A stretch of 64,000 nucleotides of DNA, from NCBI GenBank assembly GCA_964576435.1, contig CAZNUP010000002.1, positions 247,182-311,181 on the forward strand, written 5' to 3'. How positions within the stretch are numbered: the first letter of the stretch is position 1; every line of letters begins with the position of its first letter. The position numbers were made by a program, and so were the translations under genes. A model generated the notes under the pieces. The model did no database searches and had not been told where the DNA came from. It saw only the letters and a list, made by a program, of their open reading frames with translations. The DNA comes from an uncultured Gammaproteobacteria bacterium (lineage in GTDB: Bacteria; Patescibacteriota; Microgenomatia; JAMCZE01). Below, in pieces: positions 5,890-51,781 of the stretch.

Positions 5890-5906
5890 TGTACGATGAA
5901 ATAACG

Positions 5907-7655: not shown

Positions 7656-7658
7656 CTT

Positions 7659-8711: not shown

Positions 8712-8720
8712 TATTTTTTT

Positions 8721-9938
8721 GTGAAGCAATTTACCTATAAAGCCAAAGACGCAAACGGAAGCACACTTACTGGTATTGTGGAAAGTGCAGATCAATTGGC
8801 GGCTGCTAAGACTCTTCAAGAACATGGACTTTTAGTTATCTCAGTCAATGAAAAGAAATCCTTAAATTTTGGTGACCTTAAATCACTGATTCCTGGAGTC
8901 TCGAAAGTTTCTGATCAGGAGGTAGCAACTTTTACGAGACTTCTGTCTACAATGCTTAAAGCAGGATTACCTTTAATTGATGCTCTTTCCAATTTGGCAG
9001 TACAAACTACAAATCCATATTTTAAAGATGTGGTTCGTTCTGTTCTTCAAGATGTTCAAGGGGGAATTAGTTTATCTGCTTCAATGAAACGATACCCCAA
9101 AGTTTTTAATAATTTGTATGTTAGTTTGGTAGCTGCTGGTGAGGCGTCTGGAAAAGTTGGAGAGACAATGGAGAGACTTGCTGAGATGCTTGAATCTGAC
9201 CTCGATTTCAAAGGTAAAATTAAGGGAGCCCTTATTTATCCAGCAATTGTGGTAGTTGCTATGGCGGGAGTTGCTATCTTTATGATTACAACGATTATTC
9301 CAAAAATAGCTGATGTGTATGATGAATTTGGAGCAGAGTTGCCTTTACCTACTAAGATTCTAATTGGGATTTCCGACATTTTTGTTCACTATACAATCTT
9401 TGTGGTCATTTTTATTGTTATTGTCATTATTGCAGTCAAAATTTTTAGAAAAAATCCAGCTAGTGACCTTTTGATAAATAATTTTATGTATAGACTTCCA
9501 ATTATGGGAGAACTTAATTCTGAAGTGGTTATGACAATTTTAACAAGGACATTGGGAACACTTATTAATTCAGGTATTTCAATTTTAGACTCACTAAAAA
9601 TTGTGGCGAACGCTATGGCAAATGATAAATATAAGATGGGACTTGAGTATGCAGCTCAAACTGTTGAAAAAGGACTCCCTTTCTCGTCAGCGATAAGACG
9701 AAACCCAGATTTTGCTCCAATTGTGGCACAACTTTCAGCAATTGGTGAGGAAACCGGGACTCTTGGAGACAGCCTGAATAGATTATCTAAATACTATCAA
9801 GATTCTTCAGAAAGAAAAGTTAAGGCGCTGACAACGGCTTTGGAACCAATCATGATTTTAGTTATGGGGGCAATGGTTGGTGGTTTGGCGATTGCCGTAT
9901 TGCTTCCGATGTTTAATTTGGTTAATGTTATTAAATAG
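8721..9938 (+). CDS. pilC: type IV pilus inner-membrane platform protein PilC (GspF family)
   Basis: 405 aa with two GspF repeats and three TM segments; GTG start; immediately downstream of pilB and pilT. Confidence 0.85.
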   Translation: MKQFTYKAKDANGSTLTGIVESADQLAAAKTLQEHGLLVISVNEKKSLNFGDLKSLIPGVSKVSDQEVATFTRLLSTMLKAGLPLIDALSNLAVQTTNPYFKDVVRSVLQDVQGGISLSASMKRYPKVFNNLYVSLVAAGEASGKVGETMERLAEMLESDLDFKGKIKGALIYPAIVVVAMAGVAIFMITTIIPKIADVYDEFGAELPLPTKILIGISDIFVHYTIFVVIFIVIVIIAVKIFRKNPASDLLINNFMYRLPIMGELNSEVVMTILTRTLGTLINSGISILDSLKIVANAMANDKYKMGLEYAAQTVEKGLPFSSAIRRNPDFAPIVAQLSAIGEETGTLGDSLNRLSKYYQDSSERKVKALTTALEPIMILVMGAMVGGLAIAVLLPMFNLVNVIK

Positions 9939-9968
9939 GTGGAAAAACCTAATCAAATTTAAGTACGA

Positions 9969-10415
9969 ATGAAAAAGTATCTGCCCAGATCTTCAAATTC
10001 TTCAAGTGCGTTTACGCTTATTGAACTTATGGTTGTTATGGCTGTTATTGCGGTTCTTTCCACAATGGCACTTTATGGTTTAGGTAAAGCCCAGGCTGCA
10101 GCACGAGATGCGCAGCGTCAACAGATTATGACGGGGGTTCAGACGGGACTTGAAAGATATTACTCCGATAATCAAGCTTACCCTGCGGGAAATTTCTGCA
10201 CAATGATTAGTACACTTGTTACAGGAAGCTATCTAACTAGCCCCACTGACCCTACTAAGGTTCCGGTGTGTGGTACAGGAACGGTAGGTACAGCCATCTA
10301 TCAATATGGAAGTCCAGTTTCTGGGCAATGTGCAGGTACTGCCTTGCCTAATGGTTATCAACTTACATTAACGAAAGAGTCTGGTGGAAGAAATTATTTT
10401 TGCTCACCAAATTAA
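9969..10415 (+). CDS. type IV major pilin paralog 1 (class III signal, FTLIELM)
   Basis: N-terminus MKKYLPRSSNSSSAFTLIELMVVMAVIAVL with Glu+5; C-terminal disulfide-loop region ...KESGGRNYFCSPN; Ala rather than Gly at position -1. Confidence 0.8.
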   Translation: MKKYLPRSSNSSSAFTLIELMVVMAVIAVLSTMALYGLGKAQAAARDAQRQQIMTGVQTGLERYYSDNQAYPAGNFCTMISTLVTGSYLTSPTDPTKVPVCGTGTVGTAIYQYGSPVSGQCAGTALPNGYQLTLTKESGGRNYFCSPN

Positions 10416-10907
10416 ATGAAAAACGGATTTACACTCATTGAACTAATGGTGGTTATGACAGTGATTGCGATCCTGTCGACAATGATTCTTTTTGGTCTTG
10501 GTAAATCACAAGAAGCTGCAAGAGATGTGCAAAGACAACAAACAATGAAAGGAATTCAAGCCGCTCTTGCTAGATATTATGGCGACAATGGTTCATATCC
10601 AGTTGCTGGAGGGACACATGGATGGTTTACTGGAGATTTGATTGCACTTCTGGTAACACAAGGTTATTTAACATCTCCACCTACGGATCCTAATTCTTCA
10701 TGTACAGTTGCTTCTGATACTTCTGGTGCTACAAATTGGCAACCTTGTTCAGGAAAGGCAACGCCTTACTATAAATATATTTATCCAAATTGGAGCCCCA
10801 CAGGCAGTTCAACTTTTATTTGTCCCGGTATAAATGATAGGCAAAGCTACCAGTTGGTTTTGGCAAAAGAATCTGGTGGTTATTCGACTTTTTGCTCGCC
10901 GCAATAA
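10416..10907 (+). CDS. type IV major pilin paralog 2
   Basis: MKNGFTLIELMVVMTVIAIL prepilin signal (G-1, F+1, E+5); C-terminal ...LAKESGGYSTFCSPQ shared with its neighbours. Confidence 0.85.
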   Translation: MKNGFTLIELMVVMTVIAILSTMILFGLGKSQEAARDVQRQQTMKGIQAALARYYGDNGSYPVAGGTHGWFTGDLIALLVTQGYLTSPPTDPNSSCTVASDTSGATNWQPCSGKATPYYKYIYPNWSPTGSSTFICPGINDRQSYQLVLAKESGGYSTFCSPQ

Positions 10908-10948
10908 GAAATAATTAAATAAAAATTGAAATTTGAAGGAGGTGAAAA

Positions 10949-11485
10949 ATGAAAACTAGAAATTTAACAAAAAAAGGTTTTACGCTCATTGAACTCATGA
11001 TTGTGATCACGGTGATTGCAATTCTTGCTGCTATTGTCCTATTTGGACTTGGAGCCGCACAGAGAAATGCTCGAGATGTTCAAAGAGCCCAAATAATGAG
11101 AGGTGTTCAAACTGCTTTACAGGCACAAGCATCAACCAATGGATCCGGTGCTTATTTGTCAAACGCAGCAGCGGCACCAGGTTTAAATTGTACCAATGGA
11201 ACTGGGTGTTGGGGACCTATGACTACCGCCTTAACGAGTTTTATAGGAACGGGTGGTTTGGTCGATCCCGGATGTGGTAGTGGAACCCAAGATATGGTTG
11301 GAGTGGTTGGAGGTGAGCCACCAACATCTACTGGTTGTGCTGCAGGTAGCGTTCAGTATATGTATTTTTATGGTGCTAATCCTGCAATAAGTGGAGTTTC
11401 TACCTGTCCAAATGTGACTGGTAAATATGTTTTGGTTCTTAAGAAAGAAGGGGGAGGTTATCAGACTTTCTGTGCTCCTCAATAA
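10949..11485 (+). CDS. type IV major pilin paralog 3
   Basis: MKTRNLTKKGFTLIELMIVITVIAIL prepilin signal; C-terminal ...LKKEGGGYQTFCAPQ; strong SD GGAGGTG upstream. Confidence 0.85.
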   Translation: MKTRNLTKKGFTLIELMIVITVIAILAAIVLFGLGAAQRNARDVQRAQIMRGVQTALQAQASTNGSGAYLSNAAAAPGLNCTNGTGCWGPMTTALTSFIGTGGLVDPGCGSGTQDMVGVVGGEPPTSTGCAAGSVQYMYFYGANPAISGVSTCPNVTGKYVLVLKKEGGGYQTFCAPQ

Positions 11486-11551
11486 AGAGGATTTGGTTTT
11501 TAGGAATTTTAAACCACGCCCAATTGGGCGTGGTTTTGTTATGATGAGGGG

Positions 11552-12295
11552 ATGGTTGCTTTTTGGATTTTACTTTTTGCTTTTGGACTTGTCATTGGAA
11601 GCTTTTTAAATGTCCTTATATGGCGTCTTTCTGATGAAAAGGCACCAAGATTTTGGGAAGGAAGAAGCATCTGTCCCAAATGCAAACATAAACTTTCTTG
11701 GTTTGACAACATTCCCCTACTTTCCTTCATTTTACTTGGTGGTAAATGTCGCTACTGTAAAAAGAAAATTTCTATTCAATATCCAATAGTGGAACTAATA
11801 ACGGCAATTACAACGGTTTTGATAGTTAATTTTGTAAGTTATCTAGATCCATTAAGTGTTGCGAGCCTCTTAATTATTGGGTACTCATTTATTGTTATCT
11901 TTTTTGCAGATTTAAACTATCAGATCATTCCAGATGAAATGCTAATTCTCATAATCATATTTGGAGCGGCATTGAATTTTGGAGGAATTAATGTTTGGGT
12001 GGGGCTTTTAACAGCTCTTGGATTTTTCCTAGTGGTTCTTGCTACAAAGTTTCGCGGGATGGGACTTGGAGATGTAAAACTAGCCTTTGTGATGGGATTC
12101 TTACTTGGCTATCCTAGTATTTTAATTGCAGTCTGGTGGTCATTTATTATTGGTGGAATTTTTGCGGTGAGACTTCTTATATTGCACCGGAAAAATTTTC
12201 GTGACACAATGGCATTAGGACCATTTTTGGTTCTTGGAACATTAATTGCTGCCCTATGGTCAAAAGAAATTTTGGGTATTCTCTCGTTGAACTGA
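11552..12295 (+). CDS. pilD: prepilin peptidase PilD (A24 family)
   Basis: N-terminal zinc-binding CPKCKHKLSWFDNIPLLSF...GGKCRYCKKKI, polytopic, GLGDVKL active-site region. Confidence 0.85.
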   Translation: MVAFWILLFAFGLVIGSFLNVLIWRLSDEKAPRFWEGRSICPKCKHKLSWFDNIPLLSFILLGGKCRYCKKKISIQYPIVELITAITTVLIVNFVSYLDPLSVASLLIIGYSFIVIFFADLNYQIIPDEMLILIIIFGAALNFGGINVWVGLLTALGFFLVVLATKFRGMGLGDVKLAFVMGFLLGYPSILIAVWWSFIIGGIFAVRLLILHRKNFRDTMALGPFLVLGTLIAALWSKEILGILSLN

Positions 12296-12849
12296 TGATC
12301 GTGCTCGCCGTAATGGGCGCGCTTACTGGAATCGTATTTTTTGGACTCCACTCTTTCAACAATGGCCAATCTGTTGCCAATGCGCAAAAGGCATTTATAA
12401 CGGAGGTTCGCTCGGGTATTACTAAAGTTGATAATGGTGCTAATGGTTTGTCTGTCAGATCCGTAATTTTACTTGCCAATGGTGCTGATGGTTATTATGT
12501 TGATGGGACCAAAGTTTCTCTTCCAAAGGGTGTCACTATTTCTAAGAGTTCAAACCCTAGTAGTGTGATGCTTTTTTGTCTTGCAAATAAAAACTTAAGT
12601 GACTTTGATCTACCTACACAACCTAATGGTTGTTCAGGAACTTATAAAGATAGTAGTGGAAATAATATTACGGTTTCTTGCCCTAATGGAGCTACTGGAG
12701 CTGCACCTACACAATATTTTGTATGCTCTCCCCCTAATACTAAGTCTTCGCTTTCCTCTGTTACAGTTACATTTACAAATGGCTCAACGACTAAAAGTGT
12801 TGTAGTTCAAGGTAGTGGTATGAGAGTGAATCAAGTATATGCGCTATAA
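12256..12849 (+). CDS. minor pilin / pseudopilin-like protein
   Basis: MVKRNFGYSLVELMIVLAV class III signal (G-1, Y+1, E+5); overlaps the pilD 3' end by 40 nt in another frame. Confidence 0.6.
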   Translation: MVKRNFGYSLVELMIVLAVMGALTGIVFFGLHSFNNGQSVANAQKAFITEVRSGITKVDNGANGLSVRSVILLANGADGYYVDGTKVSLPKGVTISKSSNPSSVMLFCLANKNLSDFDLPTQPNGCSGTYKDSSGNNITVSCPNGATGAAPTQYFVCSPPNTKSSLSSVTVTFTNGSTTKSVVVQGSGMRVNQVYAL

Positions 12850-13291
12850 AAAGGGTTTTTCTATAGTAGAAACAATAGTTGCCTTGATGATTTTAGGAGC
12901 TATTGGGGCGGCTGTTTTGGGGCTTAACGTTCAGATTCAATCAGTGGCAAATAGTTCTAAATTCAAAACAATTTCTGAATCCCAGGCCCAAAGTATGATT
13001 GAAAGAGCTAGAAACGTAAAAGTTTCTGAAGGTGGAGTAAGTTCACTTACTGATGGTTGTTATACCAGTGAGGATTTGATTACTCCTTCTTTTACTGCAG
13101 CACAATGTACTTGTTCGTCTGCGGGTATTGTTCATGGGGGAAGTCTTCCAAATCTTGGACCAAATTTTAAGGGATATCTTGTTGTTAGTCCTAGTAGTGG
13201 TGGTGGAAAGAGAATTCAATCAGTTGTTGGATATGTAGAAAAAAATAAAACAGTTTGTACTGAAGTTGATACTTACATGTATGATTACTAA
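12839..13291 (+). CDS. minor pilin-like protein
   Basis: MRYKKGFSIVETIVALMILGAIGA prepilin-type signal with E+5; 150 aa. Confidence 0.55.
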   Translation: MRYKKGFSIVETIVALMILGAIGAAVLGLNVQIQSVANSSKFKTISESQAQSMIERARNVKVSEGGVSSLTDGCYTSEDLITPSFTAAQCTCSSAGIVHGGSLPNLGPNFKGYLVVSPSSGGGKRIQSVVGYVEKNKTVCTEVDTYMYDY

Positions 13292-13817
13292 GTTTAAAAA
13301 TAGAGCGGGGTTTACACTTATTGAGCTTGTTGTAGTGATTGCAATTTTTGGAATACTTGCAATTGTTGCGACTAACTATTTGCTTTCTACTGTTTCTACT
13401 AGTAATAGAATTAGCGTTGAAAATGAAGTTAGACAAAATGCTGTCCTAGTTCTATCCGAAATGTCAGATGAAATACGAAAAGCTACTAGTGTATGTAATA
13501 TTACCGCTAATGGATTTAAGACATCAAGCTCCCCTACCTGTGCAGCAGGTAATGATATTTCCACATTTACAATCACAAATGGTGTTGTTTCAAAAAATGG
13601 TAACCCTATCAGCTCTGATAAAGTCGCTTTTGTTGATTGTAACCAGTCTGGATGTAGTCAGGATAGAACAACTTGTGCACCCGGCATTGCTGTTACATTA
13701 AATGGTAAGGCCTATGAAATCGATATTACAGCTACACAACAAAATGCAACTACACGGGTTGATTCGTGCGCTCAAGTAAAACTTCATGATGTGGTTGTTC
13801 CTAGGAACGCGAATTGA
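13281..13817 (+). CDS. minor pilin-like protein
   Basis: MITKFKNRAGFTLIELVVVIAIFGILA prepilin signal; the ORF track starts at TTG 13266, the ATG at 13281 is preferred; overlaps the preceding gene by 11 nt. Confidence 0.6.
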   Translation: MITKFKNRAGFTLIELVVVIAIFGILAIVATNYLLSTVSTSNRISVENEVRQNAVLVLSEMSDEIRKATSVCNITANGFKTSSSPTCAAGNDISTFTITNGVVSKNGNPISSDKVAFVDCNQSGCSQDRTTCAPGIAVTLNGKAYEIDITATQQNATTRVDSCAQVKLHDVVVPRNAN

Positions 13818-13855
13818 TAATTGATAAATTTTTCTAATGTTGTTAGGCTAAAACT

Positions 13856-14695
13856 GTGAATATTGTTAGACAAAAAGGTCAAGTCACTTTGATTGCAGTT
13901 ATTTTGGGTGTTTTGGGTTTAACACTGGGACTTGCTGTTGCCTCCAGATCGCTTTCGGACTTTAAACAAGCAAGCACTGTTGATTTTGGAACTAAGGCGC
14001 TTGCTGCTGCTGAAGCGGGAGCAGAGTATGGCTTAAATGCTTTAGCAACTAGAACAACACCTGTTATCAGTTGTGAAACCTCACCAAATTTAGCAGCGGC
14101 GGGACAACCATTGGTTGGACTCAGTAACACTTTAATTAATGTCAATAATTTGGTAGTTCAGACCTGCCCGGATGCCTTGCAATTTGCAATGGGTGAAGTT
14201 GACAAAGATGATGTTTTTCAGGTTGACTTTAGTGGAAGTACAACGCCAACTACTCAAGTTAGAATTTATTGGACCGATGCTAGTGGAATTTTAGTTTCAG
14301 GTCTTTCTGACACTTTTGCAATTGGAAGATCGGCATTTCGTAATCCTTCACAACTTAGTGGAAGTAATTTTACTACTGCTACCTCCATATCTAGTTCAAA
14401 TACTGCTTGTGACCAGGAAGCAAAGAAAAACGCCGCATATAACTATACTGGAACTGTTACAGTAGTTCCCACTGGTGCAGCTAGACTTTTGAGGATTACA
14501 CCAATTGGCTCTAGCGCAAAGATATATGTTTGTGGTGAGACCACTGTTATTCCACCACAATATTATGAAGTGACTTCTACAGCCACAACGAAAAATGGAA
14601 CTACTAAAAGAGTAAGAGTACGTAGGGATATTTCTGGAAAGCTACCAGCGATTTTTGACAACGTGTTATATTCCGGAGGCTCGATCACAAAATAG
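13856..14695 (+). CDS. PilX-like pilus-associated protein (PilX_N-type N-terminus)
   Basis: N-terminus RQKGQVTLIAVILGVLGLTLGLAVASRSLSD resembles the PilX_N signature; GTG start; 279 aa. Confidence 0.5.
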   Translation: MNIVRQKGQVTLIAVILGVLGLTLGLAVASRSLSDFKQASTVDFGTKALAAAEAGAEYGLNALATRTTPVISCETSPNLAAAGQPLVGLSNTLINVNNLVVQTCPDALQFAMGEVDKDDVFQVDFSGSTTPTTQVRIYWTDASGILVSGLSDTFAIGRSAFRNPSQLSGSNFTTATSISSSNTACDQEAKKNAAYNYTGTVTVVPTGAARLLRITPIGSSAKIYVCGETTVIPPQYYEVTSTATTKNGTTKRVRVRRDISGKLPAIFDNVLYSGGSITK

Positions 14696-14710
14696 TTTTT
14701 TAAACTGCCC

Positions 14711-15739
14711 ATGAAGTTTCAAGACCACATTGGACTCGATATTGGCGAGCGAAATATTAAATTAATTCAATTAGCTCGCAATGGTGATAGCTTTAGTCTT
14801 TCTTCTATTGGAATTACTGACTCTACTCCCCTATCTGACGCTCCTGGATCAGACGCTTTAATTTCGCAGAGTATAAAAAAATTGGCTTCAGATACTGGCA
14901 CTCATGGTAAGGCAGTTGTTTTAGCTTTACCTGAATCGCAAGTTTATACACGAGTTATTGAGATGCCGTATTTGGAAGAACCGGAACTGTCGTCGACAAT
15001 TAAGTGGCAGGCCGAGCAATACATCCCTGTTTCTTTAGCCGATGTAGTTTTGAAGCACCAGGTTTTAAGTTTGCCAGAAACAGGAGTTCCTAATGCCACC
15101 ATGACGGTTCTTCTTGTTGCAGCACCGACGAGTTTAATTACAAGATATACATCAATTATTTCGAAAGCTGGACTCGAAGCAGTTGCAGTTGAGACAGAAA
15201 TTTTTGCAGCTGCGAGGTCCCTAGTTGCTAATGATGATTTTGGTGGGTCAACTCTCCTTGTCAATTTCGGATCTGATACAACAACTTTAGCAGCTTTAAA
15301 GAAAGGTAGCCTGACTCTTACCCAGTCTATTCCTACAGGTGGGTCAACAATGGTTAGAGCACTTTCTTCTAGTTTGAGTTTAGACATGAAGCAGGCTGAA
15401 GAATATAAAAAGACATATGGACTTGACTCACAAAAGCTAGATGGAAAAGTTTATACAACTATTAAGCCCATAGTGGACCAGATTATTTCCGAAATTAAAA
15501 AAGTGGTGGCATTTAGCGAAACTCGGGGAAATGATAATGCTATCAAGCGTGTGATTTTATGTGGTGGCAATGCATTAACTCCGGGACTTTTGTCTTACTT
15601 TACTGCTAATTTGGGCCTCGAGGTTCAACTTGGTAACCCCTTTAATCGCGTCCAGCTTACTGATAAGCAAAGAGCTGTGGTTTTTGATGCGGGTCCAATT
15701 TTTGCAGCGAGTGTGGGGCTTGCGATGAAACTAACATGA
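14711..15739 (+). CDS. pilM: type IV pilus assembly protein PilM (actin-like ATPase fold)
   Basis: MKFQDHIGLDIGERNIKLIQLARNGDSF N-terminus typical of PilM; 342 aa. Confidence 0.85.
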   Translation: MKFQDHIGLDIGERNIKLIQLARNGDSFSLSSIGITDSTPLSDAPGSDALISQSIKKLASDTGTHGKAVVLALPESQVYTRVIEMPYLEEPELSSTIKWQAEQYIPVSLADVVLKHQVLSLPETGVPNATMTVLLVAAPTSLITRYTSIISKAGLEAVAVETEIFAAARSLVANDDFGGSTLLVNFGSDTTTLAALKKGSLTLTQSIPTGGSTMVRALSSSLSLDMKQAEEYKKTYGLDSQKLDGKVYTTIKPIVDQIISEIKKVVAFSETRGNDNAIKRVILCGGNALTPGLLSYFTANLGLEVQLGNPFNRVQLTDKQRAVVFDAGPIFAASVGLAMKLT

Positions 15740-16290
15740 TTGACGTTAATCTTTTACCACAGAACGATTTGGTCAAAAAACAGGACACTAAAATTAAGTT
15801 TTATAGTGTTCTTGTTATTGTGGTCACTGTTTTAGTTGTTAGTGCCACTATTGGTGGACTTTTGATTTACAAAGGAATGCAAGAGAAGCAACTCGCTGAA
15901 CTTATGCTTAGAGAAAAAACTGCTAAGGCTAGCTTAGAGCAGGATACGCAGAAAGCAACCACTTTAATCTCGCTTAAAAAGAAAGCAAAAGGAATAGAGA
16001 CAATTGAAAAGAATCGTTATGACTTTCAGGATGCGTTTGGGTATGTTACTTCTCTTGTGCCGCCTGGAATTGATATTAATTCAGTAATAATTAAAGATGA
16101 TGGTGAAGTTACATTGACACTAAATAGTGAGAGCGTTCAGGAGGTTGTAGATTATATTGGTAGTATAAGCTCTGATTCAAATCTAAAGAAGACAAGAGTG
16201 TCAAGACTTGGAGTTGGTGAAGACGGAAAGGTTGGGTTTATTTTAGGTGGCGATTATGGAGAATCCAAAAAATCCACTCAGCTCAATTAA
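15736..16290 (+). CDS. pilN: type IV pilus assembly protein PilN
   Basis: MIDVNLLPQ start, a single N-terminal TM segment, 4-nt overlap with pilM. Confidence 0.75.
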   Translation: MIDVNLLPQNDLVKKQDTKIKFYSVLVIVVTVLVVSATIGGLLIYKGMQEKQLAELMLREKTAKASLEQDTQKATTLISLKKKAKGIETIEKNRYDFQDAFGYVTSLVPPGIDINSVIIKDDGEVTLTLNSESVQEVVDYIGSISSDSNLKKTRVSRLGVGEDGKVGFILGGDYGESKKSTQLN

Positions 16291-16996
16291 AATTGATAAG
16301 CAAAGTTTTGATTGGTCAAAATATCTCTTATCTGGCATTGCTGTGCTAATTGTTTTTGCCAGTAGTATTGTTTTGTATTCCTTTATTCCTTCAACTTGGG
16401 CAGAAATTAGTCAGAATTCCACTTTAATTCAAGAGGAGACAACTAAGGTATCAAACATGGAAAAGGCTGTAGCAGTTCTTAATAATGTTAATAGTTCGCA
16501 GATTGGCCAGAATTTGATCCAAGCACAACTTGCACTGCCAGATGAAAAAAGAGTTACGGGATTAGTTTCAGCGTTAACTACTTTAGCATCCTCATCGGGG
16601 GCGACAGTTTCACAAATTGACATCTCATTTGGAAAGGTGTCTACCTCATCGGGTAAGACAAAACCTGTTACAGCTACTAATTCTTTTAGCCAATTTGAAG
16701 ATACCAAACTTCCAAACGATGTGGTTGGTGTGCCAATTATTTTGGAAGTTACTGGGACATCTGACCAGGTTCTTGCGCTTATTGGAAAGGTTCAAGAGGC
16801 ATTGCCACTTCTTGATATAAGAGACATGGAATATATAGTTAGTGACGACAAGCAAAGTAGTAAACTGTCAGTTCTTGTTTATGCTCAACCTGGGGAAGTG
16901 TTTAATTTATCAAAAGTAGATAAGATTTCGCCTATTACGTATTCGGAGCAGAATTACTTGAACATCTTAAACACTAAGACTGATATTCTTCAGTGA
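16256..16996 (+). CDS. pilO: PilO-like pilus assembly protein
   Basis: N-terminal TM anchor followed by a coiled-coil region, positioned after pilM and pilN; the ORF track starts at GTG 16247, the ATG at 16256 is preferred. Confidence 0.5.
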   Translation: MENPKNPLSSIKIDKQSFDWSKYLLSGIAVLIVFASSIVLYSFIPSTWAEISQNSTLIQEETTKVSNMEKAVAVLNNVNSSQIGQNLIQAQLALPDEKRVTGLVSALTTLASSSGATVSQIDISFGKVSTSSGKTKPVTATNSFSQFEDTKLPNDVVGVPIILEVTGTSDQVLALIGKVQEALPLLDIRDMEYIVSDDKQSSKLSVLVYAQPGEVFNLSKVDKISPITYSEQNYLNILNTKTDILQ

Positions 16997-17243
16997 GGAC
17001 TACGTTTGTGTGAACTGATTGCTTAATTGAAAGGGTCTTTACTAAATTTCTAATTGCTCTTATTGTCTTTCCACCTTTACCAATTACTTTACCCATATCA
17101 TCTTTAGAAACAGTTGTTTTTAGAACAGTTCCACCATATTGGTCGACTTCATCCTCAATCAAAATAGCACTTGGTTCGTCGACAATATTTTCAAGAAGAA
17201 AAGTTAAAAGTTTTTTTGGTGAATTAGGCATGATTTTTAGCAA
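16974..17243 (-). CDS. KH-domain RNA-binding protein (YlqC / UPF0109 family)
   Basis: VIGKGGKTIRAIRNLV KH motif (GxxG); sits downstream of rpsP as in the conserved rpsP-ylqC order. Confidence 0.8.
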   Translation of the reverse strand: MLKIMPNSPKKLLTFLLENIVDEPSAILIEDEVDQYGGTVLKTTVSKDDMGKVIGKGGKTIRAIRNLVKTLSIKQSVHTNVVLTEEYQS

Positions 17244-17463
17244 GTAGACTGCCTACGGTTGCGGTTGGGGTTGCGCCAACACTCAACCAATAGTTGATAC
17301 GGTCTTTATTTAGAGTCATTTTATTTGCTTTGTCAGCTGGATTGTAAGTACCAAGAATTTCAATGGCTCTCCCATTTCTTTTCTTGTGTTCATCAATTGC
17401 GACGAGACGATAAACTGGGGCTCCTTTTTTTCCAAAGCGTGCTAGTCGTAGTTTTACTGCCAT
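17224..17463 (-). CDS. rpsP: 30S ribosomal protein S16
   Basis: MAVKLRLARFGKKGAPVYRLVAIDEHKKRNGRAIEILGTYNP. Confidence 0.9.
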   Translation of the reverse strand: MAVKLRLARFGKKGAPVYRLVAIDEHKKRNGRAIEILGTYNPADKANKMTLNKDRINYWLSVGATPTATVGSLLAKNHA

Positions 17464-17478: not shown

Positions 17479-18186
17479 TTACACTTTCAGGGCCTCTAGT
17501 GCAAGCTTGGCGGCGTTTTGTTCTGCGTCTTGCTTACTTCTACCCTCATCTTTTGCAAGAAGTTTTCCTTCCAAAAAGACCCCAACTGTAAATGTTTTGT
17601 CGTGATCTGGACCAGATTCCCCTAGAACTTGATAGGTTGGGGAAACTTTTGCTTTGTCTTGCGTTGTCTCCTGAAGAGTGCTTTTATAGTCCTGGATTTC
17701 AGAGTTCTCACTAACGTCAGTTATTAGTGGGAATAGATTTTTTTTGAGGAATTCTTTTGCTATCTCTATTCCTTGGTCCAGGTAAATGGCGCCTAAAACA
17801 GCCTCGAAGGTATCTGCAAGGAGTGATGGATTGTTTCGTCCGCCACTTTTTTCCTCACCCTTACTTATTAAAAGAAAATCCCCAAGGTTTAGTGTTTTTG
17901 CTAGCTCGCTTAAAGTTTTTGTTTTAACAAGAAGAGATCTGAGAGAAGTTAACTTGCCTTCAGGATAGGATTTGAATTTGTTATAGAGTTCTGTTGAAAC
18001 AAGAATAGAAAGCACACTATCCCCTAGAAACTCTAGACGTTCGTTAGAGACTTTAGCGGTATGTTCTTCGTTTAAATATGATCTATGAGTAAGAGCGGTT
18101 TTTAGGAGTTTTGGATCCTTGAAAGTGATATTTAACTTTTTTTGAAGATCGTCTACGTTTTCCATATTAATCAGTTTGTTCCTCAA
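17479..18186 (-). CDS. rnc: ribonuclease III
   Basis: ERLEFLGDSVL catalytic signature and a C-terminal dsRBD; 235 aa. Confidence 0.9.
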   Translation of the reverse strand: MRNKLINMENVDDLQKKLNITFKDPKLLKTALTHRSYLNEEHTAKVSNERLEFLGDSVLSILVSTELYNKFKSYPEGKLTSLRSLLVKTKTLSELAKTLNLGDFLLISKGEEKSGGRNNPSLLADTFEAVLGAIYLDQGIEIAKEFLKKNLFPLITDVSENSEIQDYKSTLQETTQDKAKVSPTYQVLGESGPDHDKTFTVGVFLEGKLLAKDEGRSKQDAEQNAAKLALEALKV

Positions 18187-18733
18187 TTTGGGTTATTAAA
18201 TCTAAGACGGTTTCTGGTGGATTTTCCTTGTCAAAAACAATGTTATATTCCTTTTCCAAACTAGCAAAGAGATCAGAAACTTCTAGGTCGGAAGCATTTA
18301 GGTCAGTTTTCAAATTGGCTTCGTCGGTTATATTTTTATCGTCCGTACCAAATTTAACTGCTAGTACGCGTTTAATTCTTGTTGGGGTTAAAAGTGCTTT
18401 GCCAAGAGCTCCGTTTATGAAACTTGGGCTTGTTTCTGTGCCAAATTCTTTGGCTAACTCCACACTTTCATCGATAATTACTTTGGCTGGGGCTTGCGGA
18501 TCAATGACAAGTTCGTAGATTCCAAGTCTTAGAATAGCTAGGTCAATTTGATTTATCCTTGTTATCTCCCATTCAGGGGCGCAGGATTTAATTAATTCGT
18601 CTATTTGTTCGATGTGTGCTACCACGTCTTTGGTTTTTTGGGAAATACGTTGACCTTTGTGAGCTTGCCAGGCAAAAAGTTCTTGAATTGTCTTTTGGCG
18701 TTCTTGATGCCTTGGGTCAGAAGCGGTTTTCAT
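18167..18733 (-). CDS. nusB: transcription antitermination factor NusB with a C-terminal acyl-carrier-protein-like extension
   Basis: NusB core up to ...SPSFINGALGKALLT; a further ~70 aa (IKRVLAVKFGTDDKNITDEANLKTDLNASDLEVSDLFASLEKEYNIVFDKENPPETVLDLITQIEEQ) align by eye to ACP (IEERVKKIIGEQLGV...[21 protein letters not shown]...). Confidence 0.7.
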   Translation of the reverse strand: MKTASDPRHQERQKTIQELFAWQAHKGQRISQKTKDVVAHIEQIDELIKSCAPEWEITRINQIDLAILRLGIYELVIDPQAPAKVIIDESVELAKEFGTETSPSFINGALGKALLTPTRIKRVLAVKFGTDDKNITDEANLKTDLNASDLEVSDLFASLEKEYNIVFDKENPPETVLDLITQIEEQTD

Positions 18734-18933
18734 TAAGCAGTTTTTGCCTTAGGTGTTTTAATTTTCTTGACTTGGCGACCTTTGTAAAAACCACAATGTT
18801 TGCAGGCAGTATGAGTTGGGGTGGGCTTTCCACAATTTGCACATTTTGAAAGCGCGAGGAATTTGGCCTGATGATCTTTTCTTCTTCGGCCTTGTCGTCT
18901 TGTTGATAGTCGGCGTTTTGGTAGTGGTGTCAT
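18733..18933 (-). CDS. rpmF: 50S ribosomal protein L32
   Basis: MTPLPKRRLSTRRQGRRRKDHQ N-terminus and a CxxC...CxxC zinc ribbon; its stop and the nusB start overlap as TAATG. Confidence 0.85.
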   Translation of the reverse strand: MTPLPKRRLSTRRQGRRRKDHQAKFLALSKCANCGKPTPTHTACKHCGFYKGRQVKKIKTPKAKTA

Positions 18934-18934: not shown

Positions 18935-20896
18935 CTAGTTTTGAACTATTGATATTTTACTTTCTCTGATAAGTTTTAACAAGAGCGGAAAGTCTTGGGG
19001 GTTTTTTAGGACCTTTTCAGCAAAAGTTGATGATCTTTCGACTAGTTCTAGATCTGAGAAGTCTGCTATTTTTAGATCCCATTTGCCATGTTGGGCAGTC
19101 CCAAATCTCTGGCCAGGGCCTCTGAATTTAAGATCGGTTTCTGCTAACTGGAGTCCATCGTTTAGTCTTTCAAGATACTTTAGTCTACTTATTCCTTGGT
19201 CGTTTTCAGTAAACAAAAGGCAATATGACTGCTTGTCTCCCCTTCCAACTCTTCCCCTTAGTTGGTGAAGTTGGGCAAGGCCAAAACGGTCGGCTGCTTC
19301 AATTAACATAATAGTAGCGTTTGGAATGTCTATTCCGACCTCAACCACTGGAGTTGCTACCAAAATATCAAGTTTTTTGTCTTTAAATTGACCTAGGATT
19401 TTGTCTTTTTCGCTTGGTTTCATTTGGCCATGTAAAAGTCCTAACTTTAAATCTGGAAACACATTGTCTTTTAGGTTGGCATATTCTTTTTTGGCGGCTT
19501 TGACTTCAGAAAGGGTTTCCGACTCTGACTCTTCAATTAGGGGGCAAACTATAAAGCTCTGAGTTTTTTGATTTTTTATCCAGGTATAGGCCCCTGCCCT
19601 TTTTTCCTTAGGGACTACCCAAGTTTTAACTGGAAGACGGTTTTTAGGTAGCTCATCTAAGACTGAAATATCTAAATCGCCATACAAAGTTAAAGCAACA
19701 GTCCTTGGGATCGGAGTTGCTGTCATTGTCAAAACGTGAGGATTTTTGCCTTTTGCAGTTAATTTAGCTCTTTGCCCTACTCCAAAGCGATGTTGTTCAT
19801 CTATGACAATTAAACCCAGGTTTTTGAAATTTAAGTTATCTGACAAAAGGGCGTGAGTGCCAACGACAATGTCATAACCAGAGTAATCTTTGGTTGACCC
19901 TGTGGCTATCCCAACTGGGATGTCTAAAAGTTTAGAAAGTGTTTTGTGGTGTTGATTTGCAAGGATTTCTGTTGGTGCCATCAGAACTGACTGGAAGCCA
20001 TTTTCATGGGCTTGAAGCATGGCAAGAGCAGCAACTACAGTTTTTCCAGAACCGACGTCCCCTTGAAGAAGCCTGTTCATCGGAGTCTCTTTCTCTAGAT
20101 CATTTGAGATTTCTGAAATGACTTTTTCTTGGGCGACAGTCAAAGCAAAAGGTAAGGTTTTTTTAAATTTGGTTTGATCGATAGGTTTAAATTTGTTACC
20201 AATGAGGTTTTTTTGCCAAAGTTCTTTACGCTCTTTAGATTCAAGCTGAGAGAACACTAATTCATCAAATGCTAGCCTCTCTCTGGCTTTTGCTGCCAAT
20301 TCCTTACTTTCTGGGAAATGAATTTGATTAAGTGCATCTTTTAATCTCATTTCTTGATTTGGAAGATAGTCTTCTACTTCTAAGTTTTTTAAAACATGGT
20401 GAATTCGGCCTCTAAGCCACTTTGAAGAAATGCCTTCAGTTTCTGGATAAATTGGAACCAGTCTTCCGGTGTGAATAGCTTCTCCGTAAAGAACTTCATA
20501 TTGTGGGGCTTCTAATTGGAGTTTGTTGCCAGTACGTTTTACTTTTCCAGAAAGAGAAATGTTGTCGCCTTTATGGATTGCGCTAGTTAAAAATCTTTGG
20601 TTGAACCAAATTGCCTCGGAAATTCCTGTTTCATCTTCAACTTTAGCTGTTTCAATTGCGAAGCCACTTTTTGTGATAAAGTTTTTTATATCAATAACTT
20701 TCCCCTTTATTGTGACAATTTCTCCTTCTTGTAATGAATTTGCCTTTGCTAAAAGAGAAAAGTCTTCATAGCGACTTGGAATATGCCACAAGAGATCTTT
20801 AATAGTTTTAATTCCAAGCCTGTCTAGTCTTGTTTCGAATTGGGGCCCAATTTGGGGGATTTGAGAGATTCTATTTGTAAGTGAAAGCATAGCCAA
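18935..20896 (-). CDS. recG: ATP-dependent DNA helicase RecG
   Basis: 653 aa with an N-terminal wedge domain, helicase motif I GDVGSGKT, DEQHRFGV (motif II) and QLHQLRGRVGRG (motif VI). Confidence 0.9.
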   Translation of the reverse strand: MAMLSLTNRISQIPQIGPQFETRLDRLGIKTIKDLLWHIPSRYEDFSLLAKANSLQEGEIVTIKGKVIDIKNFITKSGFAIETAKVEDETGISEAIWFNQRFLTSAIHKGDNISLSGKVKRTGNKLQLEAPQYEVLYGEAIHTGRLVPIYPETEGISSKWLRGRIHHVLKNLEVEDYLPNQEMRLKDALNQIHFPESKELAAKARERLAFDELVFSQLESKERKELWQKNLIGNKFKPIDQTKFKKTLPFALTVAQEKVISEISNDLEKETPMNRLLQGDVGSGKTVVAALAMLQAHENGFQSVLMAPTEILANQHHKTLSKLLDIPVGIATGSTKDYSGYDIVVGTHALLSDNLNFKNLGLIVIDEQHRFGVGQRAKLTAKGKNPHVLTMTATPIPRTVALTLYGDLDISVLDELPKNRLPVKTWVVPKEKRAGAYTWIKNQKTQSFIVCPLIEESESETLSEVKAAKKEYANLKDNVFPDLKLGLLHGQMKPSEKDKILGQFKDKKLDILVATPVVEVGIDIPNATIMLIEAADRFGLAQLHQLRGRVGRGDKQSYCLLFTENDQGISRLKYLERLNDGLQLAETDLKFRGPGQRFGTAQHGKWDLKIADFSDLELVERSSTFAEKVLKNPQDFPLLLKLIRESKISIVQN

Positions 20897-20920: not shown

Positions 20921-22537
20921 ATGAAGGTTTTGATTGTTGGTGCTGGAATTGCTGGGTTATCACTGTCAGCACATCTAAAAATATCCGGATACGAAGTTGT
21001 TATTGTTGAACGAGCTGAAAAAATTCAAACTCACGGGTTTGTTCTAGGTCTTTGGGGGGCCGGGCTCAAGACTCTTGAAGAATTCCAAATTAATGAAAAT
21101 ATAAAGAGCGTTGGGCATTTTCCTACCCGTTTTGATCTAAGGGATAAAGACGGAAAAGTTTTAAGAAGGTTCGATTTCTCACGACTCATAGATAAATACG
21201 GGCAGGCAGTAACACTTTTGAGAAATGATTTTCAAAAGATTCTTCTTGACATCAACAAAGGGCAAAAAATTATATTAAATACCTCAATTAAGAGCCTTCA
21301 TCAAAGTAAAGATGACGTGACAGTTGTTTTTACAAACGGACATGAAGAGAAGTTTGATTTGGTGGTTGGCGCTGACGGAATTCACTCAAAGACAAGAGAA
21401 TTAATTTTCGGTGAAGGTTTTGTTAAATATTCAGGTTTGACCAGTTGGATTTATATGCTTCCGGATAGTGATCATTTTAAAACTAATGTGACGGAGATTT
21501 GGTCCGGAGATAAGTTTTTCGGCGCCTACCCTTTTAAAGAGAAAAGATTGTGTGTAATTTTTGCATTAAAAGCATCTAAAGGAATGTATTCAGATACACA
21601 AGATAAGATCTCTTTATTAAGAAAAGAATTTGGAGATTTTGGTTGGATTGTGAAAGATGTTCTAAATTCAATGACAAATCGAGAAGGCATTTTTCATACC
21701 GACTGGAATGAAGTCGAGATTAAAAATTGGCAAGACAAGAGGGTTGTTTTGATTGGGGATGCTGCTCATTCCATGTTACCCACAGCGGGCTCTGGTGCTT
21801 CAATGGCACTTGAAGACTCATTTTGGCTAGCAAATGAGATTAGGGCTAACCCAGACAATCTTATTTTAGCAGTGGAAAATTTTTGTTTACGAAGAAATAA
21901 GGCGGTTCGAGAATTAAAGGGTCATACTGATTTAATGGGGAGAATTATAGGGTTGTCTGGTCCTCTGGCAGTAGTTAGAAATTTTTTTATAGGGCTTATT
22001 CCAGAAGGATTAATACATAAGGACCTTGCATATTTGATGACTATTCAAGACAAGAAGTATATGTCTGATTATTACGCCATAAAGACGGTTTGGGAATTTG
22101 ACAAACAGAAATCCGATGTTTGTTCGACTCTATTTGAAATTAAAAATTGGCCCCAGTGGTGGAAGTTTGTTAAGTCTTCTAAGTTTGGTGACATTGTTGA
22201 TGGTAAAACAAGGGTGCACGTTGTCTTTGGATTTTGGCAATACCAGTTGGATTTCGATATATACGAAGACCAGATTTCTTCTGATGAAATCGGCGGGTCT
22301 GTTGTTGGTGATCTGTTTGGGAATGCAAATGTTAAGGTCATAAAAGAAGGCAATAGAACGAAAGTAATTTTCAAATGGCAAGTCTTAGTTGAAAGACCCT
22401 GGATAAGAAAGGCCTCAAAATTCATGCATCCGTTGTTTTCATTTGCACATAGTTATGCAATGGAGTCAGGTGCTAAAGGACTTGCTAAGGAGCTTGGGTG
22501 CAGACTCGTATCTTCTAAGTCTGTTAAAATCGACTAG
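20921..22537 (+). CDS. FAD-dependent aromatic-ring monooxygenase fused to a C-terminal SRPBCC (Bet v1/COQ10-like) domain
   Basis: VLIVGAGIAGLSLS Rossmann motif and GDAAHSMLPTAGSGASMALEDS flavin-hydroxylase motif in the first ~380 aa; the last ~150 aa resemble the polyketide-cyclase/SRPBCC fold. Confidence 0.7.
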   Translation: MKVLIVGAGIAGLSLSAHLKISGYEVVIVERAEKIQTHGFVLGLWGAGLKTLEEFQINENIKSVGHFPTRFDLRDKDGKVLRRFDFSRLIDKYGQAVTLLRNDFQKILLDINKGQKIILNTSIKSLHQSKDDVTVVFTNGHEEKFDLVVGADGIHSKTRELIFGEGFVKYSGLTSWIYMLPDSDHFKTNVTEIWSGDKFFGAYPFKEKRLCVIFALKASKGMYSDTQDKISLLRKEFGDFGWIVKDVLNSMTNREGIFHTDWNEVEIKNWQDKRVVLIGDAAHSMLPTAGSGASMALEDSFWLANEIRANPDNLILAVENFCLRRNKAVRELKGHTDLMGRIIGLSGPLAVVRNFFIGLIPEGLIHKDLAYLMTIQDKKYMSDYYAIKTVWEFDKQKSDVCSTLFEIKNWPQWWKFVKSSKFGDIVDGKTRVHVVFGFWQYQLDFDIYEDQISSDEIGGSVVGDLFGNANVKVIKEGNRTKVIFKWQVLVERPWIRKASKFMHPLFSFAHSYAMESGAKGLAKELGCRLVSSKSVKID

Positions 22538-45805: not shown

Positions 45806-45888
45806 GCAGATGTGGCGGAATTGGTATACGCGCACGCCTTAGGAGCGTGTTCCCAAAAGGAATGGAGGTTCAAGTCCTCTCATCTGCA
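45806..45888 (+). tRNA. tRNA-Leu (anticodon TAG), class II with a long variable arm
   Basis: Hand-folded: acceptor GCAGATG/CATCTGC, anticodon stem CACGC/GCGTG with loop CTTAGGA, variable arm TTCC-CAAAA-GGAA, T-loop TTCAAGT; CCA is not encoded. Confidence 0.8.
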
Positions 45889-47719: not shown

Positions 47720-47723
47720 ATTC

Positions 47724-47816
47724 GTGCGTGATACTATCTATATAACGATAGTATATATCGATATAACGATAGTGTCAATAACGTCGTGTGTACTTTGAAT
47801 AATTGATGTCCTATAA
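47724..47816. promoter_or_regulatory. divergent control region with operator-like repeats and a candidate -10 box
   Basis: Direct repeats ataacgatagt at 47743-47753 and 47763-47773; inverted arms actatc/gatagt; TATAAT at 47811-47816. Confidence 0.4.
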
Positions 47817-47897
47817 TTCCCGTGAATGTTCAATTAAGAATTTGGAGCTTATTAATAAGAAAAATAAAGATAAATCTTCTGTCCACAAGATTAATCC

Positions 47898-51748: not shown

Positions 51749-51781
51749 TAAGTTCACCCCCTTTCTGTAAAAAATTGAATT

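What the first reader, a model, noticed from the sequence alone, without database searches (positions are those of the whole stretch)
18167..18933. NusB with a C-terminal ACP-like tail sitting exactly where the fab/acpP cluster lies in other bacteria (rpmF ... acpP-rnc synteny relic)
In many bacteria the order is rpmF-plsX-fabHDG-acpP-(fabF)-rnc. Here rpmF (stop overlapping as TAATG) is followed by nusB, whose last ~70 aa align by eye to acyl carrier protein, and then rnc. There are no fab genes, consistent with a lipid-synthesis-deficient, host-dependent lifestyle. The ACP-like segment has the serine shifted (NASDLEV against DSLDTV), so it may be a degenerate relic or a repurposed interaction domain fused to NusB.
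Basis: partly seen in the sequence, partly recalled or inferred. Interest (0 to 1): 0.55.

Follow-up and report, generated by a model that had tools for sequence, protein, structure and literature searches.

The report
NusB fused to serine-less ACP domain
A candidate-phyla-radiation (Microgenomates) bacterium has welded a leftover acyl carrier protein, which has lost the serine that carries its cofactor, onto the transcription factor NusB, and relatives made the same fusion independently at least three times, which suggests the old lipid-synthesis protein now works as a docking module in ribosomal-RNA production.

Summary
Window 18167-18733 (minus strand) encodes a 188-aa protein: a bona fide NusB (aa 1-115) joined by a 2-3 residue linker to a 73-aa domain that is homologous to type-II acyl carrier protein in sequence (PDB AcpP E=3e-7; NCBIfam ACP E=1e-9) and in predicted fold (TM 0.75-0.84). 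It fails the curated ACP thresholds. It also lacks the phosphopantetheine serine: Asp149 occupies that position, and only 2 of 67 family members have Ser there.

The synteny-relic idea is supported. Related Microgenomates genomes carry either nothing, a free-standing 76-86 aa ACP-like gene, or the fusion in one conserved slot (recG-rpmF-nusB-[ ]-rnc-rpsP-khpA). Genuine acpP lies just upstream of rnc in Bacillus and other bacteria. The free forms have also mostly lost the serine.

Closely related free/fused pairs show two different fusion mutations (an 81-nt deletion and a 2-nt indel). With the older window clade, that makes at least three independent fusions to NusB and none to RNase III.

Best reading: a cofactor-independent, acidic ACP-derived interaction domain acting with NusB, analogous to the Ppant-less mitochondrial ACP of Plasmodium. 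Its partner and function are inferred, not shown. I found no description of the architecture in the literature I could search. Interest is moderate.

The parts
18167..18733 (-). nusB::ACP-like fusion gene, 188 codons plus TAA stop (18167-18169)
   Evidence: ORF listing. An identical protein, P0001, occurs on 3 public contigs. About 67 fused homologues exist at 43-66% identity.
18389..18733 (-). NusB domain, aa 1-115 (six helices: 7-24, 32-39, 41-51, 62-77, 83-97, 102-114)
   Evidence: PF01029 E=1.4e-24. TIGR01951 scores 96.6 bits, above the 88.35 cutoff. Foldseek TM about 0.7 to NusB structures 1eyv, 1tzt and 3d3b.
18170..18388 (-). ACP-like domain, aa 116-188 (helix I 117-128, helix II 149-163, helix IV 176-187); net charge -9
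   Evidence: NCBIfam ACP models E=1e-9. PDB AcpP E=3e-7. Foldseek TM 0.75-0.84, rmsd 1.1-1.7 A to AcpP structures. Charge computed.
18269..18304 (-). Degenerate phosphopantetheine-attachment motif DLNASDLEVSDL (aa 144-155). The Asp149 codon (18287-18289) occupies the canonical Ser36 position and Ser148 (18290-18292) the Asp35 position.
   Evidence: Gap-free alignment to [12 protein letters not shown]. Family column at the Ser position: D42 E10 P4 Q4 N3 S2 T1 K1. Preceding column: T50 S9 D3 G3 N2. Helix II starts at residue 149 in the model.
18733..18933 (-). rpmF (L32), stop overlapping the nusB start as TAATG
   Evidence: PF01783 E=2.9e-16; sequence read directly.
17479..18186 (-). rnc (RNase III). 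The start is either TTG 18186 (20-nt overlap with the fusion gene) or, more plausibly, ATG 18165 (TAA-T-ATG), with an SD-like GAGGAA at 18179-18184 inside the last ACP-domain codons.
   Evidence: Pfam Ribonucleas_3_3 E=7e-41 and dsrm E=6e-17; sequence read directly.
18935..20896 (-). recG, first gene of the conserved block recG-rpmF-nusB-(ACP)-rnc-rpsP-khpA
   Evidence: ORF. The same block with RecG_wedge/DEAD/Helicase_C is found in relatives. The best promoter-like site lies just upstream at 20925-20897, and there is no minus-strand terminator-like site down to 16800.
16974..17463 (-). rpsP (17224-17463) and the khpA-type KH-domain gene (16974-17243), the downstream end of the block
   Evidence: KH_KhpA-B E=2.2e-16. 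Ribosomal_S16 occupies the same position in relatives.

Best explanation
The gene encodes a genuine NusB whose C-terminus is fused, through a 2-3 residue linker, to a domain descended from the acyl carrier protein gene that ancestrally sat just upstream of rnc.

In this lineage of candidate-phyla-radiation (CPR) bacteria (Microgenomates, reported to lack fatty-acid synthesis), the ACP gene stayed in place between nusB and rnc. It lost the serine that carries phosphopantetheine. It kept the four-helix fold and the acidic face of helix II. It then fused in frame to NusB on at least three separate occasions.

The domain therefore most likely does not carry acyl groups. It works as a cofactor-independent acidic docking module, rigidly mounted on the last helix of NusB. 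My inferred guess for its role is to bind a basic partner in the rRNA antitermination and processing machinery: RNase III (encoded immediately downstream and translationally coupled), S10/NusE, or another antitermination-complex subunit.

Shown here: homology, fold, loss of the serine, synteny, the free and fused states, and the fusion mutations. Inferred: absence of the cofactor, the interaction function, and the identity of the partner.
For: - Homology and fold. The free-standing Daviesbacteria form, with Pro at the Ser position, also models as an ACP (pLDDT 86.8, TM 0.8-0.9).
- Serine loss: 65 of 67 fused proteins lack Ser at the canonical site, and the preceding residue is Thr in 50 of 67. 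Free forms carry P, E, K, G, A, F or T there, and only L007 and L085 keep Ser.
- Helix-II acidic residues are retained: E151 in 64 of 67, D154 in 64 of 67, E160 in 62 of 67. Mean net charge of the tail is -8.3.
- Synteny: three states in one slot. Genuine acpP lies next to rnc (PMC4838370).
- Independent fusions: L011 versus L007 is an 81-nt in-frame deletion; L010 versus L006 is a 2-nt frameshift; the window clade is a third type. There are 0 ACP-Rnc fusions against 7 NusB-ACP fusions in 89 loci.
- Rigid two-domain model: pTM 0.88, with no pLDDT dip at the junction.
- Constraint: the tail diverges faster than NusB (42% against 59% identity) but in step with it (r=0.66), with no frameshifts or stops across about 67 clusters.
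- Lineage context: CPR bacteria are described as unable to synthesize membrane lipids, and even the CPR group with near-complete FA pathways lacks ACP synthase (PMC7242380).
- Precedent: the Ppant-less ACP of Plasmodium binds Isd11-Nfs1 (PMC8547962).
Against: - No partner has been identified, and no interaction was tested.
- The module is absent from 52 of 80 related species, so it is dispensable in most of the group.
- Two fused Amesbacteria forms carry a 4-residue deletion at the start of helix II (L056, L071), which looks like decay.
- The window protein itself has a Ser (148) one residue before the canonical site, and a few relatives keep Ser at the site, so modification is not strictly excluded.
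- Only 64 kb of the genome could be searched for AcpS and fab genes.
- The inter-domain geometry rests on pTM alone; neither PAE nor coordinates were available.
- Charge differences in NusB and Rnc between lineages with and without the module are weak and not corrected for phylogeny.
Confidence: 0.65

Rival explanations
1. Neutral relic. The ACP-like sequence has no protein-level function. It persists, free or fused, only because its reading frame carries the ribosome-binding site and translational coupling needed to express rnc. The fusions are harmless accidents between overlapping genes.
For: - It is lost entirely in 52 of 80 lineages.
- It evolves faster than NusB.
- L056 and L071 carry deletions in helix II.
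- The rnc SD-like sequence and start lie inside or abut the last tail codons.
- The genes overlap, so 1-2 nt indels fuse them easily.
Against: - The fold is confidently predicted from the family alignment (pLDDT about 95 over the tail; 86.8 for free forms).
- The hydrophobic core and helix-II acidic residues are conserved at or above 90% across proteins only 40-60% identical.
- There are no stops or frameshifts in about 67 fused and more than 30 free clusters.
- Fusions occur only to NusB, never to Rnc, despite equal overlap.
- Lineages without the module express rnc directly after nusB, so coupling does not require it.
Confidence: 0.2
2. The domain is still a working carrier protein. It is phosphopantetheinylated on Ser148 (or on Thr/Ser in relatives) and used, for example, to shuttle scavenged fatty acids to PlsX/PlsC-type acyltransferases in a cell that lacks FASII.
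For: - An overall AcpP-like sequence and fold.
- A hydroxyl residue (T/S) in 59 of 67 proteins one position before the canonical site.
- A few relatives keep the canonical Ser (L007 DS, L085 SS).
- From general knowledge, Gram-positive PlsC needs acyl-ACP even when fatty acids are scavenged.
Against: - The canonical Ser is absent in 65 of 67 fused proteins and in nearly all free forms. Daviesbacteria forms read G-P, with no hydroxyl residue at either position.
- The majority residue is Thr, which to my knowledge is not a PPTase substrate.
- The Asp35 equivalent that AcpS recognises is lost.
- There are no AcpS, fab or pls genes in the window.
- CPR genomes are reported to lack ACP synthase (PMC7242380).
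- A carrier rigidly fused to NusB would be an odd shuttle.
Confidence: 0.07
3. Assembly or gene-calling artefact: a frameshift error has joined two separate genes.
For: One free-standing call (P0125, 85 aa) is identical to the tail of fused P0069, which shows that gene callers sometimes disagree at this junction.
Against: - The identical 188-aa protein occurs on three independent contigs.
- About 67 distinct fused clusters come from many samples, with a conserved junction.
- There is no stop codon in frame.
Confidence: 0.01

Closest known systems
NusB (transcription antitermination factor; E. coli, M. tuberculosis, T. maritima)
   Same: The N-terminal 115 aa pass the NusB equivalog threshold and share the all-helical fold. 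The DEAVELAK...FINGALGK core is conserved.
   Different: The domain is shorter at the N-terminal bundle: the Pfam match starts at model position 42, and all Microgenomates NusBs are about 112-125 aa. It carries a C-terminal ACP-like domain where E. coli NusB, as I recall the sequence, has only a short tail.
AcpP/AcpA, the type-II fatty-acid-synthase acyl carrier protein
   Same: A four-helix fold (TM up to 0.84), end-to-end sequence similarity, an acidic helix II, and a position immediately upstream of rnc, as in B. subtilis acpA-rnc.
   Different: No Ser at the DSL site (Asp149). Scores fall below all curated ACP cutoffs. There are no fab genes nearby. It is covalently fused to NusB.
Ppant-less mitochondrial ACP of Plasmodium and other Apicomplexa (Falekun et al. 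2021, PMC8547962)
   Same: An ACP retained after loss of FASII, with the cofactor serine replaced, that acts (in Plasmodium, experimentally) purely as a protein-binding subunit through its acidic surface.
   Different: That protein is eukaryotic and organellar, has Ser->Phe, and partners with the LYR protein Isd11-Nfs1. This one is bacterial, has Ser->Asp/Glu/Pro, is linked to NusB and rnc, and no partner has been shown. That paper reports no Ser-less ACPs outside Apicomplexa and Vitrella.
mt-ACP in the MALSU1-L0R8F8-mt-ACP mitoribosome assembly module (PMC8067846)
   Same: An ACP moonlighting in ribosome biogenesis. This locus lies among ribosome-biogenesis genes (rpmF, nusB, rnc, rpsP, khpA, and trmD in relatives).
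   Different: From general knowledge, mt-ACP binds LYR proteins through its acyl-Ppant arm. No LYR protein or Ppant is evident here. The link is by analogy only.
RsmB/Sun (NusB-like N-terminal domain fused to a 16S rRNA methyltransferase)
   Same: A precedent for the NusB fold as the N-terminal module of a two-domain rRNA-related protein. RsmB models hit the NusB half weakly (E=3.5e-6).
   Different: The C-terminal partner in RsmB is a catalytic methyltransferase, not an ACP fold. The window protein is a true NusB equivalog, not an RsmB.

Membership tests
NusB (TIGR01951 / PF01029) | Profile score above the curated cutoff | tested here: met
   TIGR01951 scores 96.6 bits against 88.35; PF01029 scores 87.5 bits against 23.1.
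NusB (TIGR01951 / PF01029) | All-alpha NusB fold | tested here: met
   AF2 pLDDT 93.8. Foldseek 1eyv, 1tzt, 3d3b and 3r2c at TM about 0.7 (target-normalised), probability 1.00.
NusB (TIGR01951 / PF01029) | Binds S10 (NusE) and BoxA RNA and supports rrn antitermination | not testable with these tools
   No rRNA operon or S10 gene lies in the window, and no complex prediction was available.
Acyl carrier protein / PP-binding (PF00550, TIGR00517, NF002150) | Profile score above the curated cutoff | tested here: not met
   PF00550 scores 15-16 bits against 20.8; TIGR00517 28.4 against 70.45; NF002150 38.3 against 66. The hits are statistically significant (E=1e-9) but sub-threshold.
Acyl carrier protein / PP-binding (PF00550, TIGR00517, NF002150) | Four-helix ACP fold | tested here: met
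   TM 0.75-0.84, rmsd 1.1-1.7 A to 2eht, 5h9h, 1l0h and 2x2b. The free-standing relative reaches TM 0.8-0.9.
Acyl carrier protein / PP-binding (PF00550, TIGR00517, NF002150) | Conserved Ser of the D-S-L motif at the N-terminus of helix II (phosphopantetheine attachment) | tested here: not met
   The window protein has Asp149, and only 2 of 67 fused family members have Ser. Free forms mostly have Pro.
Acyl carrier protein / PP-binding (PF00550, TIGR00517, NF002150) | A cognate PPTase (AcpS/Sfp) and acyl-ACP-using enzymes in the genome | tested here: inconclusive
   None in the 64-kb window. The literature reports that CPR genomes lack ACP synthase.
Ppant-independent ACP (apicomplexan mACP type) | ACP homologue lacking the cofactor Ser in a compartment or organism without FASII | tested here: met
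   Ser loss is shown. Absence of FASII is taken from the literature on CPR and from the absence of fab genes at this locus and in relatives' loci.
Ppant-independent ACP (apicomplexan mACP type) | Binds an LYR-motif protein (Isd11) and stabilises Nfs1 | not tested
   No LYR or Nfs1 search was done. The genomic linkage points to NusB and rnc instead.

The most novel reading that the evidence does not exclude
The serine-less ACP-like protein is a previously unrecognised, lineage-specific subunit of the bacterial rRNA antitermination and processing machinery. It docks on NusB, non-covalently in Davies-, Ames-, Blackburn- and Beckwithbacteria and covalently in the fused clades. Through its acidic helix II it recruits or positions RNase III (or S10 or another basic factor) at BoxA-bound transcription complexes. 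This would be a bacterial counterpart of the cofactor-independent ACP of Apicomplexa and of mt-ACP's role in mitoribosome assembly, and it would hint that the widespread acpP-rnc gene pairing reflects an old functional link between ACP and RNA processing.
Probability: 0.2. Interest if true: 0.75.

Novelty: new variant of a known kind. Interest (0 to 1): 0.5.

Why it matters
- It gives a bacterial example of an acyl carrier protein that outlived fatty-acid synthesis by losing its cofactor site and taking on another job. That phenomenon has so far been documented experimentally only for apicomplexan mitochondria, and the authors of that work found no other cases outside Apicomplexa and Vitrella.
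- Recurrent, mechanistically distinct fusions to NusB are a classic 'Rosetta stone' signal. They name a concrete partner, and so a concrete experiment, for a protein family that automated pipelines label either plain 'NusB' or 'acyl carrier protein / phosphopantetheine-binding protein'.
- It warns against counting these genes as evidence of lipid metabolism in CPR genome reconstructions.
- It offers an explanation to test for why acpP and rnc are neighbours and co-transcribed in Firmicutes and other bacteria.

Tried and rejected
- **Exhaustive profile search of the tail**: it returned 27,450 PP-binding superfamily members, including PKS/NRPS carriers. This confirms the superfamily but does not define a distinct clade or point to a partner.
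- **Foldseek against afdb50**: the library was unavailable.
- **Model coordinates and PAE** are not exposed, so the NusB-ACP interface could not be inspected. Only pTM and pLDDT are available.
- **Context of P0163**: a second, non-fab ACP in Lachnospiraceae, uninformative for synteny.
- **Cluster look-up**: gave no organism names for the window protein. The lineage is inferred from named relatives (Microgenomates, Gottesmanbacteria).
- **Literature search for the Bacillus order** recG-fapR-plsX-fabD-fabG-acpA-rnc found nothing. Only acpA-rnc-smc-ftsY and the fabG locus tag (BSU15910) are documented. The recG...rpsP-khpA-trmD parallel rests on my memory of the B. subtilis map.
- **Net-charge comparison** of NusB and Rnc in lineages with and without the module: small differences (p=0.01-0.06), uncorrected for phylogeny and multiple tests. 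I count this as inconclusive.
- **Literature searches for a described NusB-ACP fusion**: nothing relevant.
- **Considered and rejected:**
  - Colicin-immunity-like nuclease inhibitor (same SCOP fold class, from memory): the sequence similarity is clearly to AcpP.
  - L7/L12 dimerisation domain (Pfam E=0.12): noise.
Full report
**What is at the coordinates.** On the minus strand the window carries a tightly packed block: recG (18935-20896), rpmF (18733-18933), a 188-codon ORF (18167-18733), rnc (17479-18186), rpsP (17224-17463) and a KhpA-type KH gene (16974-17243). The rpmF stop and the start of the 188-aa ORF overlap as TAATG. The ORF's TAA (18167-18169) lies either 20 nt inside rnc (TTG start at 18186) or one base before a more plausible rnc ATG at 18165, with an SD-like GAGGAA inside the last codons of the ORF. 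No terminator-like site lies on this strand between recG and the KH gene, and the best promoter-like match is just upstream of recG.

**The two halves of the protein.** Residues 24-113 match Pfam NusB (E=1.4e-24). The whole protein passes the curated NusB equivalog threshold (TIGR01951, 96.6 bits against 88.35).

The last 73 residues fail Pfam PP-binding at its gathering score (15-16 bits against 20.8, E=0.015-0.03). They do hit several NCBIfam ACP models at E about 1e-9, though at 38 bits against cutoffs of 66-71. They also align end to end with solved AcpPs: T. maritima 6lvt at E=3.2e-7, A. aeolicus 2ehs at 1.8e-6, B. subtilis 1hy8 at 3.4e-5.

An AlphaFold2 model built on 67 homologues is confident (pLDDT 93.8, pTM 0.88), with no confidence dip across the 2-3 residue junction. 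Foldseek matches residues 1-115 to NusB structures (TM about 0.7) and residues 116-188 to about 30 different AcpP structures (TM 0.75-0.84, rmsd 1.1-1.7 A over 68-72 columns). So the tail is an ACP-fold domain homologous to type-II FAS ACP, but it is not a canonical member of that family.

**The serine.** DLNASDLEVSDL aligns without gaps to E. coli [12 protein letters not shown]. Asp149 sits at the Ser36 position, which is also the first residue of helix II in the model, and Ser148 sits at the Asp35 position. This is a family trait, not a quirk of this protein:
- Among 67 fused homologues the Ser36 column reads D42, E10, P4, Q4, N3, S2, T1, K1.
- The preceding column reads T50, S9, D3, G3, N2.
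- The helix-II acidic residues that canonical ACPs use to dock on partner enzymes (a role known from general knowledge) are kept: E151 in 64 of 67, D154 in 64 of 67, E160 in 62 of 67.
- The tail stays strongly acidic, with mean net charge -8.3.

**Distribution and origin.** About 67 clusters (at 90% identity) of fused proteins, 178-220 aa long, exist in public data. All come from Microgenomates-type CPR bacteria. The next-best NusB relatives are 112-125 aa and unfused. Neighbourhood look-ups show three states in one conserved slot of recG-rpmF-nusB--rnc-rpsP-khpA(-trmD):
- nothing (L001);
- a free-standing 76-86 aa ACP-like gene whose start and stop overlap nusB and rnc (Daviesbacteria L003/L004; Amesbacteria L006, L008; L007);
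- the fusion (the window and L005).

In a survey of 80 species-representative NusB loci, 52 had none, 24 a free gene and 4 a fusion, and rnc followed directly in practically all of them.

The free proteins also mostly lack the serine. Daviesbacteria-type forms read DLG[IL]GPVE, and Amesbacteria-type forms read DLGLS[PE]xQ. Only L007 (DS) and Beckwithbacteria L085 (SS) keep it. The Daviesbacteria protein still models as an ACP (pLDDT 86.8; TM 0.8-0.9 to AcpPs; helix II starts at the Pro).

Genuine DSL-type acpP genes lie next to rnc in other bacteria. L091 shows acpP-fabF-rnc. In B. subtilis, rnc is the second gene of an acpA-rnc-smc-ftsY operon with a detectable acpA-rnc mRNA (PMC4838370). E. 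coli has yceD-rpmF-plsX-fabH-fabD-fabG-acpP-fabF. From memory, and not verified here, the B. subtilis map reads recG-fapR-plsX-fabD-fabG-acpA-rnc-...-rpsP-khpA-...-trmD, which would match the flanks of this locus as well. The 'synteny relic' reading is therefore well supported.

**How the fusions arose.** A neighbour-joining tree of tails and free proteins places fused forms in at least three positions. DNA comparison of close free/fused pairs shows different mutations:
- L011 differs from L007 (74.5% DNA identity) by an 81-nt in-frame deletion. It removes the last NusB codons, the stop and a hairpin-containing spacer, giving ...SILQN|MTEPTLTEKL.
- L010 differs from L006 by a 2-nt indel that shifts nusB into the overlapping ACP frame, giving ...GALGHIIKSH|MNPNLKSAIL.
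- The window clade (junction ...GKALLTPTRIKRV, no internal Met) is a third and older event.

No ACP-Rnc fusion occurs in 89 loci, although those two genes overlap in the same way. Recurrent fusion with one neighbour only is the strongest evidence available here that the ACP-like protein acts together with NusB.

**What it most likely does.** CPR bacteria are described as unable to synthesize membrane lipids, and even the CPR group with near-complete FA pathways lacks ACP synthase (PMC7242380). The window holds no second ACP, no AcpS-like ORF and no fab or pls genes. That covers only 64 kb of the genome. With the serine gone and Thr as the majority neighbouring residue, a carrier function is unlikely.

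I favour a cofactor-independent, acidic interaction domain mounted on NusB (confidence about 0.65). RNase III, S10 or another antitermination-complex subunit is a speculative partner. The best experimental precedent is the Plasmodium mitochondrial ACP: it is Ser->Phe, essential, and binds Isd11-Nfs1 without Ppant (PMC8547962). mt-ACP in the MALSU1-L0R8F8 module shows that an ACP can serve ribosome biogenesis (PMC8067846). The PDB hit lists also contain ACP as a structural subunit of MukBEF, MmpL5-MmpS5, EmbA-EmbB and Ycf2-FtsHi complexes.

**Rivals.**
- *Neutral relic kept for translational coupling of rnc (about 0.2).* It fits the frequent loss, the faster divergence (42% against 59% identity) and the helix-II deletions in L056 and L071. 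It fits poorly with the conserved core and acidic face, the intact frames across about 100 clusters, and the one-sided fusions.
- *A still-functional carrier (about 0.07).* It would need modification of Thr or Ser at the -1 position and a PPTase that nobody has seen.
- *An artefact.* This is excluded by three independent identical contigs and dozens of divergent homologues.

**Known or new.** Both domains are known kinds, and serine-less ACPs are known from Apicomplexa. I found no description of the NusB::ACP architecture, or of the free serine-less ACP-like family wedged between nusB and rnc in Microgenomates, in the searchable literature. Databases label these proteins 'NusB', 'acyl carrier protein' or 'phosphopantetheine-binding protein'. 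I class the finding as a new variant of a known kind, of moderate interest (0.5). The descriptive part is solid and gives a directly testable hypothesis. The function remains inferred.

Noticed in passing
window 45806-59668: An integrative-conjugative-element-like region in a CPR genome. tRNA-Leu(tag) at 45806-45889 abuts a large serine recombinase (45870-47411, minus strand). It is followed by a T4SS coupling-protein-like gene (47898-50522), Replic_Relax (50648-51412), DUF2958 (51449-51757), an 823-aa protein with no Pfam hit (51938-54409), PrgI (56148-56654), a VirB4/TraG-P-loop ATPase (57134-59047) and an M23-peptidase-like ORF (assigned by eye).
   Followed up: partly
window 5889-16996: A type IV pilus gene cluster (pilB, pilT, pilC, several pilins, prepilin peptidase, pilM/N/O-like; mostly assigned by eye). 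It lies directly next to the nusB-rnc block. The same adjacency (PilM_2 plus unknowns on the opposite strand) is conserved in relatives.
   Followed up: no
L007 2740-2805 versus L011 3345-3350: The nusB/ACP-like spacer of the free-standing locus contains a GC-rich inverted repeat (CCTGCCTGCCGGCAGGCCAG). It is exactly the part removed, together with the stop codon, by the 81-nt deletion that created the fused gene in the close relative. It may be an internal terminator or attenuator.
   Followed up: partly
L056 3349-3534; L071 3355-3546: Two fused Amesbacteria-type tails carry a 4-residue deletion at the start of helix II and score much lower (E=4e-7 and 5e-8, against about 1e-20 for others). 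The module may be decaying in some lineages.
   Followed up: no
loci L011-L089 (record titles): Many contigs that carry the typical Microgenomates recG-rpmF-nusB-rnc block are titled 'uncultured Gammaproteobacteria/Pseudomonadales bacterium'. Single ones are titled Bathyarchaeia, Nanoarchaeota, Methylomirabilota or Saccharimonadales. These are probably mislabelled or mis-binned public records.
   Followed up: no
window 17479-18186: The rnc start is ambiguous. The mechanical ORF begins at TTG 18186, but ATG 18165 (giving MENVDDLQKK...) follows the fusion gene's stop as TAA-T-ATG and has an SD-like GAGGAA 13 nt upstream. Relatives' Rnc proteins are 215-222 aa, closer to the shorter version.
   Followed up: partly
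window 20921-22537: A 538-aa protein in which an FAD-dependent monooxygenase domain (FAD_binding_3, aa 2-307) is followed by about 200 aa with no Pfam match. It is transcribed divergently from recG.
   Followed up: no
window 59671-63999: By eye from the translations: a BlaI/BlaR1-like regulator pair, a DsbA-like thioredoxin, a cupredoxin-like protein and a multicopper oxidase (cut by the window end). This may be a copper or redox stress island just after the conjugative-element-like region.
   Followed up: no
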